Shown here: piece after piece, positions 2,421 to 12,235 of the stretch
Layout of the letters: each line of letters begins with the position of its first letter
Position numbering within the stretch: the first letter of the stretch is position 1
Origin: a virus
Lineage: Duplodnaviria > Heunggongvirae > Uroviricota > Caudoviricetes
Direction: 5' to 3' (one strand)
Virus record (IMG/VR): IMGVR_UViG_3300008259_000020
Location: 98,991 to 111,225 of that record
Length of the DNA: 12,235 bases
Notes under the pieces: model-generated
Databases searched by the model: none
Told to the model about the DNA's origin: nothing
The model's input: only the letters and a program-made list of their open reading frames with translations
Translations under genes and position numbers: made by a program

Positions 2421-2435
2421 TATTTAGTATATTTA
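2421..2435 (-). promoter_or_regulatory. Two tandem TAAATA late-promoter-like boxes
   Basis: Minus strand GAATAAATATACTAAATAGGAAATAAATTTATG; boxes at 2430-2435 (overlapping the pcyX stop) and 2421-2426. Confidence 0.6.
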
Positions 2436-3116
2436 TTCAATGTCTGGAAACAAACATTCTTGTACGAATGCTCTTACATCTTCTTCGTTGAGCCCTAATG
2501 CTGTCATAGTACGTGGTGTATGTGGATTTTGTTTTTGATAATATGCATAGCGATTTTGTGCAGTCTTACCCAATTCTGCTGTGCAAGTGCCTGCATACTT
2601 TTGTATTTCAGTACCGTAATCTTCTAGATTAGCCCACGACAATTGTAGAAGTTTAAGCAGTTCTTCTTCGGTGTTAACATTGCCCACTGCCAACATGTGT
2701 TTGCTAAAAATTGCCTGCGCCCATTCAGGTAACTCGCGTTCTTTCTTCCAAGAGTGATCTTTTAGAACATCACCAAACTGTTCAATCATAGCATGGTTGT
2801 TGTCGACAGTAGGAGATAGATCGTGAAAGAATCCAGTGACTTTGTTTTTGCCTGCAATTACATCAAGCCCGTAGATTGGTCCAGAATTGTCCAGGTGTGG
2901 AAAAATACAAAAGTGCATCATCCAGAGACCTTTTGTTTCTCTGGCATCGACTACATCTAGATGTATGCGTCTTGCCCAGCCACTTTCCCAAACAAGATTG
3001 ATCCAGCCGGGTTGATTGAATCTGTCCATCCCAGGTTCATTAACACGTTCTGCGACTGAGTCTAAGTTATCAACAACTTCTTCTTGCCAGTCAATTAAGT
3101 AATTCCATACTGTCAT
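2433..3116 (-). CDS. pcyX: Ferredoxin-dependent bilin reductase, PcyX/PcyA family (PcyX-type)
   Basis: Motifs RRIHLD, LWMMHFCIFP, YGLDVIAG, FHDLSP, ERELPEWA.IFS and YQKQNPHT. His68 and Asp85 show the PcyA His88/Asp105 spacing, and Asp54 replaces PcyA Glu76 as in PcyX. The start is probably the second Met (3116), which forms an ATGA overlap with the upstream stop. Confidence 0.88.
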   Translation of the reverse strand: MTVWNYLIDWQEEVVDNLDSVAERVNEPGMDRFNQPGWINLVWESGWARRIHLDVVDARETKGLWMMHFCIFPHLDNSGPIYGLDVIAGKNKVTGFFHDLSPTVDNNHAMIEQFGDVLKDHSWKKERELPEWAQAIFSKHMLAVGNVNTEEELLKLLQLSWANLEDYGTEIQKYAGTCTAELGKTAQNRYAYYQKQNPHTPRTMTALGLNEEDVRAFVQECLFPDIE

Positions 3117-4285
3117 CTGATATCCCAATAATAATAAATTATACTTTTTTTTCCGTTTACAACGTCTTCTACAGTAGATACCTCAGCATCGGCCCCGAAG
3201 ACATGGCCGAAGTGAAAAAGATCATAAAGTAGAATGTCACAAATTTTATCCCCGTCATTGAATTTTAATTTTTTAATTAGTTGTTTTTGCTCATTTACAA
3301 CACTATTAAATAAAACATTGTAATTGTGATTTACATCGTCGTTTATTCTCTCAAAATCTAAATTTTTCCAGTTTTCTCTTATATGACAAATGTTTTTAAA
3401 TGCTGCTTCGAATCGATGTTCGTTGGAAGTTATGTTGTCATAATTTATTGGAAAACAATATTCAAATGTTTTAAATCCTTGAGATCTTAAGTGTTCTTCT
3501 GATCCGGGTTGACCAAACAATATAAACGGATGTCTATTTATTATGGCTCTATATGTTTTTTCAGTAATCCATAAGACAGATCTGTTTGCTCCTGTTTCGG
3601 AAATTAGTGACCATGAAGTATCCGAATATAGATTCTGACTGTAGGGAAATCCATCATAACTAAAAAGATTTCCGTACTGTGAAACTTTGATGTTGTCTGG
3701 ATTTCTTGAAGCAGAAGAAACAAAGTGTTGCAATTCGCCATTGTTGATATTTAAAAATCTCTTAATATCTACTGCATATTCTTTATAATAAAAGAAACTC
3801 CATTCCATGTCAATTTCATTTAACAAGTTATTATCTAATAAAAATTTTAATGGTATTAGTCTTTGAGGCTTATGCGCTTTTCCTGTAAGTAACAATCCTC
3901 TAAACTTGGATTTATCCCATTTTTTTGCTGTTTGTTGATTGTTGATGGTTGTTGCATGTACTGTCTTGCTTTGGAAAAAATTGTATTTTATAATATTTTT
4001 TGGAAGATCATCTTGATCATCTGCACATACACTATATAAAATAAAAAAATCTACATTGTAATTTTTGAGTTTGTTTTTAAAAAAGTTGTGTAAAAAGTTT
4101 AAATCTTTAACAAATGTTATTTCCCACATATGATTTAAAACAAATACAATTTGTTCATTTATTCCACGAGACTTTATGTTTTTTAAAAATATTTGCATGT
4201 CAGAAAAGCATTCTTCATATTGTGGTGCATCATCCATTACATCACTAAAGTACGGTAATCTAACATGAACAAAAAGTTTACTCAT
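3113..4285 (-). CDS. Putative glycosyltransferase-like protein (GT-B-like C-terminal domain), 390 aa
   Basis: C-terminal 'LISET....WITEKTYRAIINRHPFILFGQPGSEEHLRSQGFKTF....YD' resembles the sugar-nucleotide-binding half of GT-B enzymes common in large marine phages. Markedly AT-richer than its neighbours. Confidence 0.5.
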   Translation of the reverse strand: MSKLFVHVRLPYFSDVMDDAPQYEECFSDMQIFLKNIKSRGINEQIVFVLNHMWEITFVKDLNFLHNFFKNKLKNYNVDFFILYSVCADDQDDLPKNIIKYNFFQSKTVHATTINNQQTAKKWDKSKFRGLLLTGKAHKPQRLIPLKFLLDNNLLNEIDMEWSFFYYKEYAVDIKRFLNINNGELQHFVSSASRNPDNIKVSQYGNLFSYDGFPYSQNLYSDTSWSLISETGANRSVLWITEKTYRAIINRHPFILFGQPGSEEHLRSQGFKTFEYCFPINYDNITSNEHRFEAAFKNICHIRENWKNLDFERINDDVNHNYNVLFNSVVNEQKQLIKKLKFNDGDKICDILLYDLFHFGHVFGADAEVSTVEDVVNGKKSIIYYYWDIR

Positions 4286-5158: not shown

Positions 5159-5608
5159 TTAGCCTTGAATTAGATTTGGTATTTCAATAGCAATCTTCTT
5201 AGGCTGCAATGCTTCTGGAACATTTCGCACTAGATGAATGTTTAACATACCAAGTTCGAGTGTTGCATTGGCAACTTCGACATGCTCGGCTAGTGTAAAG
5301 GCTCTACGGAATACGCGACCAGCAATTCCTTTGTGTAGATACTTTACTTCCTCGTCACCCTTTGGTGGTGTACCCTCAACAGTCAACGTGTTCTTATCAA
5401 GAACAATGTCGAGGTTGTCCATACCAAATCCCGCAACTGCAATAGAGATCATCCATTCGTTCTCATTGATTTCTGCAACGTTGTATGGAGGATAGTTACT
5501 TGTGCTTTGTGAGTTAGCAAATTGACGTTCTAAATCATGAAAGATTCTATCAAAGCCAACTGTGGCACGGTGAAATGAAGGTAAGTCTAGAGTTGTAAGT
5601 CTTGTCAT
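5159..5608 (-). CDS. ibpA: Small heat shock protein (Hsp20/IbpA family)
   Basis: Motifs 'YPPYNV', 'IAVAGF', 'YLHKGIAGRVFRRAFTLAEHVEV..A.LELGML.I.L...VPE...PKKIAI'. Confidence 0.95.
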   Translation of the reverse strand: MTRLTTLDLPSFHRATVGFDRIFHDLERQFANSQSTSNYPPYNVAEINENEWMISIAVAGFGMDNLDIVLDKNTLTVEGTPPKGDEEVKYLHKGIAGRVFRRAFTLAEHVEVANATLELGMLNIHLVRNVPEALQPKKIAIEIPNLIQG

Positions 5609-5661: not shown

Positions 5662-6786
5662 TTATTTACCATTGTTCGCATACACACCGTTAAATTGTTG
5701 TGTTACACGAACAAAGGTTGTGCATTTGCTAAGTTGTTTTAATGTCTTAGCGCCTGCATATGTGCAGGTAGATCTAATACCGCCAAGCAGTTCCTGTACT
5801 GTGTTGTTCACAGGACCTCTGTAAGGCACTAACACCTCCCTGCCTTCTGACGCTCGATAATCTTTCAAGCCGCCAAAATGTTTGTCGTTTGCTGCTTTAC
5901 TGCTCATACCATAGAACTTGACAAACCGTTTTTCTTCTACAACAAGATTTACACCATCGTGCTGTAGTTGATTTGTTCGGTAGTATTTGGCAATGACTTC
6001 ACCACCGCCTTCATCATGTCCGGCCAGCATCCCGCCCAGCATCACAAAGTCAGCACCAGCAGCAAAGGCTTTAGCAACATCGCCAGGGCAAGTACAACCG
6101 CCATCGGCAATAACATGACCACCAAGACCATGAGCAGCATCCGCACACTCGATGATGGCGGATAGTTGGGGATAGCCGACCCCAGTTTGTATACGAGTAG
6201 TACAAACACTGCCAGGACCAATGCCGACTTTAACAATATCTGCTCCAGCAAGAATTAATTCCTCTGTCATTTCGCCAGTAACAACATTACCAGCAATGAT
6301 TACAATATGTGGATAACGTTCGCGAATATTTCGTACATGATTTACAAATGTTTCTGTGTAACCATTTGCAACGTCAATACACAGATACTTTAGTTGTTCG
6401 CTAACATTAAGATAAACCTTGCAAAATTTGTCGTAGTCTGCATTGCTAACGCCAATGCTCATAGCAACATGTTCAGTACGAATGCTGTTGCCTTTAAAGA
6501 AATCTATAAGTTCTTGAGCACTGTATGTTTTAACAAGGCAAGTAAATGTACCGGATTTTGCTAGTGTGTCAGCCATGTCAAATGTGCCAACACCGTCCAT
6601 GTTAGCGGCCATAATAGGAACGCCACGATAGTGGTAATCTTCGATGTTATCTGGAAATCTCGGAACGTAATTTCTAAAACTAAATCTACGTTCTAGGTCT
6701 ACTTCACTACGACTGCCTAGTGTGCTTCTTTTAGGACGAATAAGAACGTCCTTATAATCTAATTTAACGTCGGTTTCTAACCGCAT
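5662..6786 (-). CDS. guaC: GMP reductase
   Basis: Motifs '[23 protein letters not shown]', '[11 protein letters not shown]', 'DVANGY', catalytic loop '[13 protein letters not shown]', 'FYGMSS' and 'YRASEG'. Confidence 0.95.
5663..5668 (-). promoter_or_regulatory. TAAATA box overlapping the guaC stop, upstream of the sHSP leader
   Basis: GGT AAA TAA: the last codon and stop of guaC form TAAATA immediately before the first leader hairpin. Confidence 0.45.
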
Positions 6787-11223: not shown

Positions 11224-11276
11224 AATAGTATTTATGAGGAGATTCTGTTGCTACGCTCTCCCCGGGCGCCCTGTAG

Positions 11277-11321
11277 TTATGCTGCTAGAGCAAACTCAGA
11301 AGGTGCAAAATTTTCATTTGC
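11277..11321 (-). other. tmRNA tag reading frame ANENFAPSEFALAA*
   Basis: Follows 'caact', with resume codon GCA at 11321 and TAA at 11279-11277. The C-terminal LAA is a Clp degron; the tag resembles alphaproteobacterial tags (AND/ENFA...AA). Confidence 0.92.
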
Positions 11322-11373
11322 AGTTGTCAACTCCATCCTGCCTAGTTCGTTGATCGATCCTATGTCAGGCCCA

Positions 11374-11535
11374 TCATAAAAATACTGCGATTAATCCTAA
11401 TACTAAAACAAATATAATACTTACATTACCCCAAAAGATCTGTTCTTGCTCAGTCGGTACCTGTTCATCACAGTACTTTTTCCAATCAAGATCTTCGCTT
11501 CTGTCTTTACTCTCATCGTAATATACATACATCAT
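11374..11535 (-). CDS. 53-aa tail-anchored membrane peptide inside the tmRNA intervening segment
   Basis: MMYVYYDESKDRSEDLDWKKYCDEQVPTEQEQIFWGNVSIIFVLVLGLIAVFL*. It starts 11 nt after the CCA and stops 1 nt before G1, filling 162 of the 174 nt of spacer. Weak AAGAAG RBS. Confidence 0.7.
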   Translation of the reverse strand: MMYVYYDESKDRSEDLDWKKYCDEQVPTEQEQIFWGNVSIIFVLVLGLIAVFL

Positions 11536-11611
11536 CAGTCTTCTTATGGTGGACCTGCCGGGTGCCGCCCCCGGGTCTCATCCGTGTTCAGTGAACTTCA
11601 ACATCACAAGT

Positions 11612-11655
11612 TATTTATATGCTAAAACAGTCAACCAGTCAAGAACTTTTTTGTG
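11612..11655 (-). promoter_or_regulatory. Composite sigma70 plus T4-late promoter driving the tmRNA gene
   Basis: A-tract UP element, TTGACT (11642-11637), 17-nt spacer, then TATAAA. The -10 region is also an exact TATAAATA (11619-11612). Confidence 0.7.
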
Positions 11656-11667
11656 TATGCTTGTTCG

Positions 11668-12234
11668 TCATTTCGCTGCTGCAATACGACGTGAGAGAGT
11701 GGCTTGAGCGTTGTATTCCTCTTGCCATTTCGACGGGCCGTTGGAGGGCGACACCTGAACTGCCGTAACCTTGTATTCTGGACAGTTGGTAGCCCAATCG
11801 CTGAAATCGGTGGTGATAACATTGGCTTGGGTGTCGGGGTGGTGGAAGGTGGTGTAGACCACGCCCGGATTGACTTTGTCGGTCAGTGTTGCTCGCAGGG
11901 TGGTTTCCCCGGCACGTGAGGCCAGACGCACCCAATCACCCTCTTTGACACCGCGCACTTCAGCATCGTGGGGATGGATTTCCAACAAATCTTCAGTATG
12001 CCATATACTGTTCGCTGTGCGGCGTGTTTGGGCGCCCACGTTGTACTGCGACAGGATACGGCCCGTGGTGAGTAGCAGCGGGAAACGCGGGCCAGTGCGT
12101 TCATCAGTGGCAATATATTCGGTGTTGATGAACCGACCTTTGCCACGCACGAAGGCATCGACGTGCATCAAAGGCGTGCCTTCAGGCGCTTTTTCGTTGC
12201 AGGGCCACTGGACCGAGCCCATCTCTTCGATCTT
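11668..12234 (-). CDS. fdsA: Formate dehydrogenase alpha subunit (FdsA/FdhF), C-terminal molybdopterin-binding domain, partial; bacterial-type GC-rich DNA
   Basis: Motifs 'VQWPCN', 'LLTTGRILSQYNVGAQTRRT', 'EIHPHDAE.RG', 'GVVYTTFHHP' and 'TNCPEYKVTAVQV'. The frame is open to the window edge. A hand-counted 60-nt sample is 58% GC, well above the rest of the window. Confidence 0.93.
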   Translation of the reverse strand, partial: KIEEMGSVQWPCNEKAPEGTPLMHVDAFVRGKGRFINTEYIATDERTGPRFPLLLTTGRILSQYNVGAQTRRTANSIWHTEDLLEIHPHDAEVRGVKEGDWVRLASRAGETTLRATLTDKVNPGVVYTTFHHPDTQANVITTDFSDWATNCPEYKVTAVQVSPSNGPSKWQEEYNAQATLSRRIAAAK

Positions 12235-12235
12235 G

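What the first reader, a model, noticed from the sequence alone, without database searches (positions are those of the whole stretch)
11236..11620. Permuted phage tmRNA whose intervening segment encodes a complete membrane microprotein
Seen: the acceptor piece (T-arm plus CCA) lies upstream of the coding piece (G1 at 11372). The 174-nt spacer between them is almost exactly filled by a 53-codon ORF (11535-11374) with an acidic N-terminus and a C-terminal transmembrane helix. Established: in two-piece tmRNAs the intervening segment is excised by RNase P and 3'-processing and is generally short and non-coding (14 nt in Caulobacter). Inference: the pre-tmRNA doubles as an mRNA, so tmRNA maturation would release or destroy the message and couple microprotein output to processing. 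Alternatively, the spacer is a tolerated cargo slot for captured genes. I am not aware of this arrangement being described, but could not search for it.
Basis: partly seen in the sequence, partly recalled or inferred. Interest (0 to 1): 0.85.

Follow-up and report, generated by a model that had tools for sequence, protein, structure and literature searches.

The report
Membrane-protein gene inside phage tmRNA spacer
A large freshwater phage carries a split (two-piece) tmRNA gene, and the spacer that is cut out when this RNA matures holds a real 53-codon membrane-protein gene, so a supposedly throw-away piece of a stable RNA probably also serves as a messenger RNA.

Summary
On the minus strand lies an alpha-type permuted tmRNA gene (Rfam 77 and 60 bits): acceptor piece ending CCA at 11547, a 174-nt spacer, then G1 at 11372. 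A 53-codon ORF (11535-11374) fills the spacer.

The gene belongs to the phage, not to a host junction.

The ORF is a real gene. Eighteen distant relatives (36-54% identity) share invariant S13, W18, Q32 and W35 plus a variable membrane helix. The six I traced are free-standing phage genes.

The spacer is a hairpin: an 11-nt closing helix clamps the ORF, holding a weak ribosome-binding site on one strand and the last codons and stop on the other.

The layout is general. Of 93 distinct phage spacers, 28 are 100 nt or longer and 13 hold ATG ORFs of 30 or more codons. Of 115 bacterial spacers, none does (maximum 83 nt). Three other spacer ORFs show third-codon-position substitution bias, and one is Pfam DUF6356.

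The "cargo slot" reading is best supported. Coupling between processing and translation is untested.

Caveats: this copy lacks a 34-nt PK1 segment, and its own close relatives show no dN/dS signal.

I found no paper describing this layout. This scan has already noted it on other DNA (91 notes, at least 82 genomes).

The parts
11637..11642 (-). -35 box TTGACT of the tmRNA promoter
   Evidence: Read. It is conserved in all five family members, while the 17-nt gap between the two boxes varies (alignment A1). The consensus scanner did not list it because the second hexamer ends in A.
11614..11619 (-). -10 box TATAAA, 17 nt after the -35 box; the predicted transcript start is near 11607
   Evidence: The start position is an inference.
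11547..11607 (-). Acceptor piece: 5' hairpin, T-arm 11574-11558, acceptor 3' strand 11557-11551, ACCA 11550-11547
   Evidence: Rfam alignment; sequence.
11373..11546 (-). Intervening segment (spacer) of 174 nt, about 33% GC, removed in the mature two-piece tmRNA
   Evidence: It is the most conserved segment of the gene against relative L133: 94%, compared with 49-83% for the mature parts.
11536..11546 (-). 5' strand of the closing helix (UAAGAAGACUG), containing the weak Shine-Dalgarno-like AAGAAG
   Evidence: It appears in the minimum-free-energy fold. 10 of 11 positions pair with 11387-11377. The same register pairs in 92% of cells across phage spacers, against 33-60% when the register is shifted.
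11377..11387 (-). 3' strand of the closing helix (CAGUAUUUUUA), which also encodes the last residues AVFL of the ORF
11373..11376 (-). UGAU tail before G1. It contains the ORF stop codon UGA and can pair with ACCA (U-A, G-C, A x C, U-A)
   Evidence: UGAU is the tail in 72 of the 85 unique phage spacers tallied (those of 20 nt or more). The pairing with ACCA is an inference.
11374..11535 (-). 53-codon ORF plus stop (protein P0001): acidic N-terminal part and a C-terminal membrane helix
11233..11372 (-). Coding piece: G1 at 11372, acceptor 5' strand GGGCCUG, tag frame, terminal hairpin GGAGA/UCUCC with loop GCGUAGCAACAGAA (holding the conserved GCAACAGAA)
   Evidence: The terminal hairpin covaries with that of L124 (GGUAC/GUGCC).
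11277..11321 (-). Tag reading frame: GCA resume codon to UAA, peptide ANENFAPSEFALAA
   Evidence: Read. It aligns with the tag region of the Rfam models.
11329..11330 (-). Site where this copy lacks a 34-nt PK1-like segment present in relatives and in lake-water DNA contigs with otherwise identical flanks
   Evidence: Alignment A1; loose ends of the contigs of run X1.
11668..12235 (-). Context: C-terminal part of a phage-borne 1002-aa molybdopterin oxidoreductase (NuoG/FdhA-like) at about 58% GC, cut by the contig end
   Evidence: The full gene on sister contig L131 is flanked by 40% GC phage DNA.
11068..11223 (-). Context: the next ORF (51 aa), same strand, starting 10 nt after the tmRNA 3' end with no terminator between

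Best explanation
This is a phage-encoded alpha-type two-piece tmRNA gene.

Its intervening segment is a hairpin. An 11-nt closing helix starts at the first base after CCA and ends four bases before G1. A small gene for a single-pass membrane protein has been captured in the loop.

The gene has no promoter of its own. It is transcribed from the conserved sigma-70-type tmRNA promoter as part of the pre-tmRNA. It is then translated either from that precursor or from the roughly 174-nt spacer RNA released when RNase P cuts at G1 and the CCA end is trimmed.

The weak ribosome-binding site lies in one strand of the closing helix. The last four codons and the stop lie in the other strand and the tail. 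Helix formation and processing could therefore gate translation.

Shown: the tmRNA features, the hairpin, that the ORF belongs to a protein family, and that the layout recurs. Inferred: co-transcription, translation, and any gating.

The spacer loop behaves as an exchangeable slot for small phage genes. The microprotein is most likely a membrane-anchored accessory (host-takeover) protein. Its activity is unknown.
For: The tmRNA is real:
- Rfam scores above cut-off, G3:U, ACCA and an ALAA-ending tag.
- -35 and -10 boxes conserved across relatives while the DNA between them diverges.

It is phage DNA, not a host junction:
- The record is 111 kb at 39% GC.
- The high-GC neighbour is a single gene flanked by phage DNA with ribonucleotide reductase genes.

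The ORF is a real gene:
- HMMER against 1.8 billion representatives finds 18 relatives. Most are 44-67 aa (full range 44-775 aa), with E-values from 2.6e-10 to 1e-3.
- The alignment shows invariant S13, W18, Q32, W35 and near-invariant Y6, D11, K20, E24, E31 before a variable hydrophobic helix. The window's copy keeps all of them.
- The fold has pLDDT 85 with a helix over residues 29-52.

Capture:
- Six distant homologues I traced are free-standing genes with no tmRNA nearby.
- The 87%-identical P0002 sits in a tmRNA spacer.

Constraint or exchange:
- The spacer is 94% identical to L133, while the mature tmRNA parts are 49-83% identical.
- L115 has a 90%-identical acceptor piece but an unrelated 74-nt spacer.

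Generality:
- Eight independent spacer families have sense ATG ORFs filling 80-94% of the spacer, each with P of 0.009 or less. Antisense ORFs are much shorter: 0-31 codons against 32-75 in sense.
- They carry AAGGA or GGAG motifs 5-9 nt before the ATG.
- Substitutions by codon position are [1,3,11], [1,0,7] (8 of 8 synonymous) and [2,1,7] in three pairs.
- One spacer ORF matches Pfam DUF6356 at 46 bits.
- The closing helix pairs in 92% of cells, with several pair types per position.
- A matched bacterial control has no spacer of 100 nt or more and no ORF (0 of 115 against 28 of 93; Fisher 1e-11).

A weak hint of precursor RNA: a 169-nt contig from a river metatranscriptome runs from inside the ORF (11440) across G1 into the coding piece.
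Against: - No direct evidence of translation or of RNA ends exists. The one RNA contig has depth 3.3, and DNA carry-over cannot be excluded.
- Among this ORF's close relatives, substitutions are about 2 synonymous against about 9 non-synonymous. All are in the N-terminal half. The 3' 100 nt are identical at the nucleotide level even in L133. That fits RNA-level constraint or recent transfer as well as protein selection.
- The ribosome-binding site here is weak (AAGAAG instead of the AAGGA of other spacers) and sits inside the closing helix.
- This copy of the tmRNA lacks the 34-nt PK1 segment, so the tmRNA itself may be impaired, or the assembly may be imperfect at that point.
Confidence: 0.75

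Rival explanations
1. Decaying passenger. The ORF was captured in the spacer but is no longer translated, as reported for the S23p ORF in the 23S rRNA intervening sequence of Coxiella. The spacer survives because the hairpin is needed for processing.
For: - The ribosome-binding site is weak and helix-buried.
- About 2 synonymous against about 9 non-synonymous changes among close relatives.
- The precedent is in PMC4990558.
Against: - The frame is intact in all six copies seen (window, L123-L126, L133), including one whose mature tmRNA parts have diverged to 49-83% identity.
- Every family-invariant residue is kept.
- The only indel is a 3-nt in-frame ATG repeat.
- Other spacer ORFs show clear third-position bias.
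Confidence: 0.12
2. RNA-level element. The spacer is conserved for a structural or regulatory RNA role in tmRNA maturation, and the open frame is incidental.
For: The 3' half is 100% identical at the nucleotide level across diverged tmRNA genes, and the closing helix is conserved.
Against: - Apart from the closing helix, the spacer folds no better than shuffles (z = -0.30).
- The same peptide family exists at 36-54% identity outside any tmRNA gene, which an RNA element cannot explain.
Confidence: 0.05
3. Independent expression. The ORF is transcribed from its own promoter inside the acceptor piece, or read from a longer polycistronic phage transcript, so the link to tmRNA maturation is only positional.
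For: All neighbouring genes are on the same strand with no terminators, so read-through transcripts from upstream are likely as well.
Against: Only 11 nt separate CCA from the ATG, and the 61 nt upstream are the structured acceptor piece. The conserved promoter directly precedes that piece. Any transcript that carries the ORF also carries the tmRNA pieces.
Confidence: 0.05
4. Host-prophage junction or assembly chimera. The tmRNA is a host ssrA at a prophage end, and the high-GC flank is host DNA.
For: The last 570 nt are 55% GC, against 39% for the record. Contigs from several samples break at 11329/11330.
Against: - On sister contig L131 the high-GC stretch is one 1002-aa gene. Phage-like 40% GC DNA (ribonucleotide reductase, nucleotidase) resumes beyond it.
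- L126 carries the same tmRNA gene with the ORF in the middle of a 49-kb phage contig.
- The same junction appears in two assemblies.
Confidence: 0.02

Closest known systems
Circularly permuted (two-piece) tmRNA genes of Alphaproteobacteria and of aquatic T4-like phages such as Methylophilales phage Melnitz (Rfam RF01849/RF04321; PMC9004378; PMC11915505)
   Same: Gene order is acceptor piece, intervening segment, coding piece. It has the T-arm, the G3:U acceptor stem, an encoded CCA and an alanine-rich tag. Phage carriage of such genes in aquatic phages is published (53 two-piece tmRNAs in isolate phages, 50 of them aquatic).
   Different: The spacer here is 174 nt and holds a protein gene. 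Bacterial spacers matched by the same pattern are 3-83 nt with no ORF. The Melnitz paper never uses the word 'intervening'. The 2025 tmRNA database paper mentions only a tRNA-Ala gene and a repetitive element in intervening sequences.
Intervening sequences of 23S rRNA that carry the S23p ORF (Coxiella burnetii; PMC4990558)
   Same: An excised, stem-closed insert in a stable-RNA precursor that contains an ORF. The mature RNA works in pieces.
   Different: A different RNA and host. There, excision is by RNase III, the ORF is reported as apparently not translated and as degenerating, and it is always the same ORF. Here many unrelated ORFs occupy the slot, and several are under codon-level selection.
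Group I introns in the T-loop of tmRNA genes, some with homing endonuclease genes (PMC11915505)
   Same: A protein gene nested in a removed part of a tmRNA gene.
   Different: The intron is self-splicing and the ORF serves the intron's own mobility. Here there is no intron and no ligation. The cargo consists of small, unrelated accessory proteins.
tRNA-mRNA co-transcripts and small ORFs within phage tRNA arrays (own knowledge: E. coli thrU-tyrU-glyT-thrT-tufB operon; T4 tRNA region)
   Same: One transcript yields both stable RNA, through RNase P, and a translated message. Homologues of this microprotein lie beside tRNA genes in L136 and L138.
   Different: In those cases the ORF lies between separate RNA genes. 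Here it lies inside one RNA gene, between two halves that must pair with each other.

Membership tests
Two-piece (permuted) tmRNA, alpha type (RF01849 / RF04321) | Covariance-model score above the curated cut-off | tested here: met
   77.2 bits against 50, and 59.8 against 47
Two-piece (permuted) tmRNA, alpha type (RF01849 / RF04321) | Permuted order: T-arm and CCA piece upstream of the piece that starts with G1 and carries the tag | tested here: met
   CCA ends at 11547, G1 is at 11372, same strand
Two-piece (permuted) tmRNA, alpha type (RF01849 / RF04321) | 7-bp acceptor stem with G3:U70, discriminator A, CCA | tested here: met
   GGGCCUG pairs with CAGGUCC, followed by ACCA. Complementary strands were found in nearly all of the viral and bacterial loci tested: 114 of about 122 viral (most exceptions are cut by a contig end) and 117 of 120 bacterial
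Two-piece (permuted) tmRNA, alpha type (RF01849 / RF04321) | Tag reading frame starting at GCA and ending in a hydrophobic ALAA-type tail plus stop | tested here: met
   ANENFAPSEFALAA then UAA, 11321-11277
Two-piece (permuted) tmRNA, alpha type (RF01849 / RF04321) | Pseudoknot PK1 upstream of the tag | tested here: not met
   The 34-nt segment CGG...GCG-CCG...CGC is present in L124-L126 and in the DNA contigs of run X1, and is absent between 11330 and 11329. It may be a deletion allele or an assembly loss
Two-piece (permuted) tmRNA, alpha type (RF01849 / RF04321) | Charging with alanine, SmpB binding, processing into two pieces | not testable with these tools
   Needs biochemistry or RNA-end mapping
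Unnamed phage small membrane protein family (alignment A2) | Motif Y-D-x3-D-x-S-E-x2-G-W-K-K-x-C-D-E ... E-Q-x2-W-G followed by one hydrophobic helix | tested here: met
   All invariant and near-invariant positions are kept. D17 replaces the usual G. Helix over residues 29-52. No Pfam or PHROG family matches
ORF-bearing intervening sequence of a stable RNA (23S rRNA IVS type) | Insert closed by a stem and excised by RNase III | tested here: inconclusive
   The closing helix is present and covaries. With the UGAU/ACCA pairing and the acceptor stem it could reach about 22 bp, which is an inference. The nuclease was not tested
Prophage or island attachment site in ssrA | Host DNA on one side, and an integrase or a displaced gene fragment | tested here: not met
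   The high-GC flank is a single phage-borne gene. No second tmRNA fragment above noise was found in the record

The most novel reading that the evidence does not exclude
In aquatic phages, the intervening hairpin of two-piece tmRNA genes is a dedicated, exchangeable expression slot for small genes. The closing helix hides the ribosome-binding site and the stop codon. The cargo would then be translated only in a defined processing state: either from the open precursor, or from the excised spacer RNA whose paired ends protect it. Microprotein output would be timed by tmRNA maturation. Spacers would move between tmRNA genes as cassettes.
Probability: 0.35. Interest if true: 0.85.

Novelty: new variant of a known kind. 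Interest (0 to 1): 0.72.

Why it matters
tmRNA intervening segments are treated as disposable linkers. Gene callers and tmRNA finders therefore either miss these genes or miss the tmRNA, as ARAGORN did here.

If the spacer is a working message, several things follow:
- One promoter would deliver both a ribosome-rescue RNA and an accessory membrane protein early in infection.
- A new kind of stable-RNA and mRNA dual-use transcript would be established.
- A hidden reservoir of phage microproteins would open up.

The cultured phage Melnitz has a similar ORF-bearing spacer. This makes the question testable at the bench.

Tried and rejected
- ARAGORN found no tmRNA in the window, although it finds the one in L133.
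- The promoter scanner listed nothing because the -10 box ends in A.
- The host-junction or chimera idea was prompted by the 55% GC end. I rejected it after reading the whole sister contig.
- dN/dS within this ORF's own close relatives is uninformative: five to eleven changes, about 2 synonymous against about 9 non-synonymous.
- Pfam and PHROGs do not match P0001. The word-index protein search found only one 87% relative. The protein atlas gave only unnamed clusters below 0.9.
- GenBank phages hold no match to this tmRNA gene or to the peptide.
- RNA runs:
  - X18 is only guessed to be RNA. Its 12-kb contig is a relative, so it gives no evidence of expression.
  - X20 covers only the acceptor piece of a relative that has a different spacer.
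  - Stretches without cover say nothing.
- The spacer has no excess folding energy beyond the closing helix (z = -0.30).
- The papers PMC516066 and PMC16621 are not held. I could not check the stated 14 nt for Caulobacter.

Full report
**What is there.** Rfam finds an alpha-type permuted tmRNA on the minus strand, at 11646-11233 (77.2 bits) and 11605-11277 (59.8 bits). ARAGORN reports nothing. The sequence reads as follows:
- A promoter TTGACT (11642-11637), a 17-nt gap, then TATAAA (11619-11614).
- An acceptor piece with T-arm 11574-11558, acceptor 3' strand 11557-11551 and ACCA ending at 11547.
- A 174-nt spacer, 11546-11373.
- G1 at 11372, whose strand GGGCCUG pairs with CAGGUCC, including the G3:U pair.
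- A tag frame at 11321-11277 encoding ANENFAPSEFALAA.

The ORF at 11535-11374 has 53 codons. It starts 11 nt after CCA, and its UGA ends 1 nt before G1.

**Phage or host?** The window is the last 12 kb of a 111-kb IMG/VR record at 39% GC. The final 570 nt are 55% GC and encode a molybdopterin-binding domain, which suggested a host-prophage junction at ssrA.

A sister contig (L123/L131, 99.7-100% identical across the junction) settles this. The high-GC stretch is one 1002-aa NuoG/FdhA-like oxidoreductase gene. Beyond it, 40% GC DNA resumes, carrying ribonucleotide reductase and a nucleotidase. L126 carries the same tmRNA gene with the ORF in the middle of a 49-kb phage contig.

The tmRNA is therefore a phage gene. 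The -35 and -10 boxes are conserved in all relatives, while the DNA between and upstream of them differs.

**Is the ORF a gene?**
- An ORF this long occurs in about 0.1% of shuffles of the spacer, and the antisense strand has none.
- An exhaustive HMMER search finds 18 relatives at 36-54% identity, most of them 44-67 aa.
- Their alignment has invariant S13, W18, Q32 and W35, and near-invariant Y6, D11, K20, E24 and E31, followed by a hydrophobic helix of variable sequence. That is a protein-level pattern, and the window's copy keeps every one of these residues.
- AlphaFold gives pLDDT 85, with a helix over residues 29-52.
- The six distant homologues I traced are free-standing genes on phage-like contigs. 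None has a tmRNA nearby. Two lie beside tRNA genes.
- Only the 87%-identical P0002 lies in a tmRNA spacer.

The gene was therefore captured into the spacer in this lineage.

**Anatomy of the spacer.** Its first 11 nt (UAAGAAGACUG) pair with 11387-11377 (CAGUAUUUUUA) at 10 of 11 positions. This is the only structure in the minimum-free-energy fold that stands out.

Across 93 distinct phage spacers, the same register (base i after CCA with base i+4 before G1) is paired in 92% of cells. Shifted registers give 33-60%. Each position shows several Watson-Crick pair types.

The 4-nt tail is UGAU in 72 of the 85 unique spacers tallied (those of 20 nt or more). It can pair with ACCA, so the precursor may form a nearly continuous helix of about 22 bp together with the acceptor stem. 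This last point is an inference.

In the window, the weak Shine-Dalgarno-like AAGAAG sits in the 5' strand. The last four codons and the stop sit in the 3' strand and the tail.

**Generality.** The same T-arm and acceptor pattern retrieved about 120 loci each from viral contigs and from bacterial genomes.

| Set | Unique spacers | Median length | Maximum | 100 nt or more | With ATG ORF of 30+ codons |
|---|---|---|---|---|---|
| Viral contigs | 93 | 69 nt | 266 nt | 28 | 13 |
| Bacterial genomes | 115 | 28 nt | 83 nt | 0 | 0 |

The Fisher test for spacers of 100 nt or more gives P = 1e-11.

- Eight independent families of long spacers hold sense ATG ORFs filling 80-94% of the spacer, each with P of 0.009 or less.
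- These ORFs have AAGGA or GGAG 5-9 nt upstream of the ATG.
- The peptides are unrelated to each other. One matches Pfam DUF6356 at 46 bits.
- Close pairs show substitutions by codon position of [1,3,11], [1,0,7] (8 of 8 synonymous) and [2,1,7].

**Exchange.** Against L133, identity by segment is 64% for the promoter, 83% for the acceptor piece, 94% for the spacer, 79% for the first part of the coding piece and 49% for the rest. L115 has a 90%-identical acceptor piece but an unrelated 74-nt spacer. Spacer content therefore does not follow the flanks. This fits cassette-like exchange or strong constraint.

**Weak points.**
- Among the window's close relatives I count about 2 synonymous and about 9 non-synonymous changes, all in the N-terminal half. 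The 3' 100 nt are identical at the nucleotide level. This family on its own gives no dN/dS signal.
- The ribosome-binding site is weaker than in other spacers.
- The window lacks a 34-nt PK1-like segment between 11330 and 11329. That segment is present in L124-L126 and in lake-water DNA contigs whose flanks are identical to the window. This copy is either a deletion allele or an assembly loss.
- The terminal hairpin of the coding piece is kept by compensatory changes, so the divergent 3' part is not junk.

**Expression.** The stretch occurs in 17 DNA runs from at least 12 studies of lake, freshwater and estuary samples. One river metatranscriptome contig (169 nt, depth 3.3) runs from 11440, inside the ORF, across G1 into the coding piece. 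This is a weak hint of an unprocessed precursor. DNA carry-over cannot be excluded.

**Literature.**
- Phage two-piece tmRNAs are published. The Melnitz paper (PMC9004378) counts 53 among isolate phages, 50 of them aquatic, but never mentions the intervening segment.
- The 2025 tmRNA database paper (PMC11915505) notes only a tRNA-Ala gene and a repetitive element in intervening sequences.
- Four further searches found no description of ORFs there.
- The nearest analogue is the S23p ORF in the 23S rRNA intervening sequence of Coxiella (PMC4990558).

Earlier notes of this scan describe the same layout on other DNA: 91 notes in at least 82 genomes, including a 53-aa membrane protein case. I reached my reading before looking at them.

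Melnitz itself has a 142-nt spacer with the closing helix, a GGAG 8 nt before an ATG, and an ORF that runs 42 nt past G1. It is not annotated as coding.

**Verdict.** This is a real phage tmRNA gene with a real captured membrane-protein gene in the loop of its processing hairpin. The cargo-slot reading is well supported. Translation from the precursor or from the excised spacer is likely but unproven. Coupling to maturation remains open.

Noticed in passing
window 11668-12235 (minus); full gene on L131:336-3344 (minus): A 1002-aa molybdopterin oxidoreductase (2Fe-2S, NuoG-type 4Fe-4S, Molybdopterin and Molydop_binding domains; formate-dehydrogenase-alpha/NuoG-like) at about 58% GC. It sits as a single gene in 39-40% GC phage DNA directly upstream of the tmRNA promoter. 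It looks like a recently acquired auxiliary metabolic gene, and relatives L124-L126 lack it at this position.
   Followed up: partly
window 11329/11330: A 34-nt PK1-like segment is missing here. It is present in lake-water DNA contigs with identical flanks and in L124-L126. Contigs from several assemblies break exactly at this point, which suggests co-existing alleles.
   Followed up: partly
L262:11078-11219 (Methylophilales phage Melnitz MZ577097, 46077-46218): The cultured phage Melnitz has a 142-nt tmRNA spacer with the same closing helix, a GGAG 8 nt before an ATG, and a 54-codon frame that continues 42 nt past G1 into the coding piece. No CDS is annotated there, and locus tags 87 and 88 are missing from the record.
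   Followed up: partly
L018:8612-8782 and the 29-30-nt spacers of L029, L031, L032 and others: The 164-nt spacer of L018 shares its closing-helix sequence with a group of 29-30-nt spacers that are bare hairpins. It therefore looks like an insertion of an ORF into the loop. Its 57-codon frame also reads 30 nt into the coding piece.
   Followed up: no
L136:85-2370: A phage tRNA array of 11 tRNA genes. A homologue of the microprotein (P0004) lies in the 216-nt gap between two of them, on the opposite strand. L138 shows another homologue next to a tRNA-Arg gene.
   Followed up: no
window 2433-3128, 5159-5608, 5662-6786 (all minus): A PcyX/PebS-type ferredoxin-dependent bilin reductase, an Hsp20 small heat-shock protein and an IMP dehydrogenase/GMP reductase-family gene: auxiliary metabolic genes of this phage.
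   Followed up: no
G000:C1:21630-21806 (outside the window): A weak second match to alpha_tmRNA (16 bits, below cut-off). By earlier notes this region is the phage's tRNA island, so it is probably a tRNA-like element rather than a second tmRNA.
   Followed up: no
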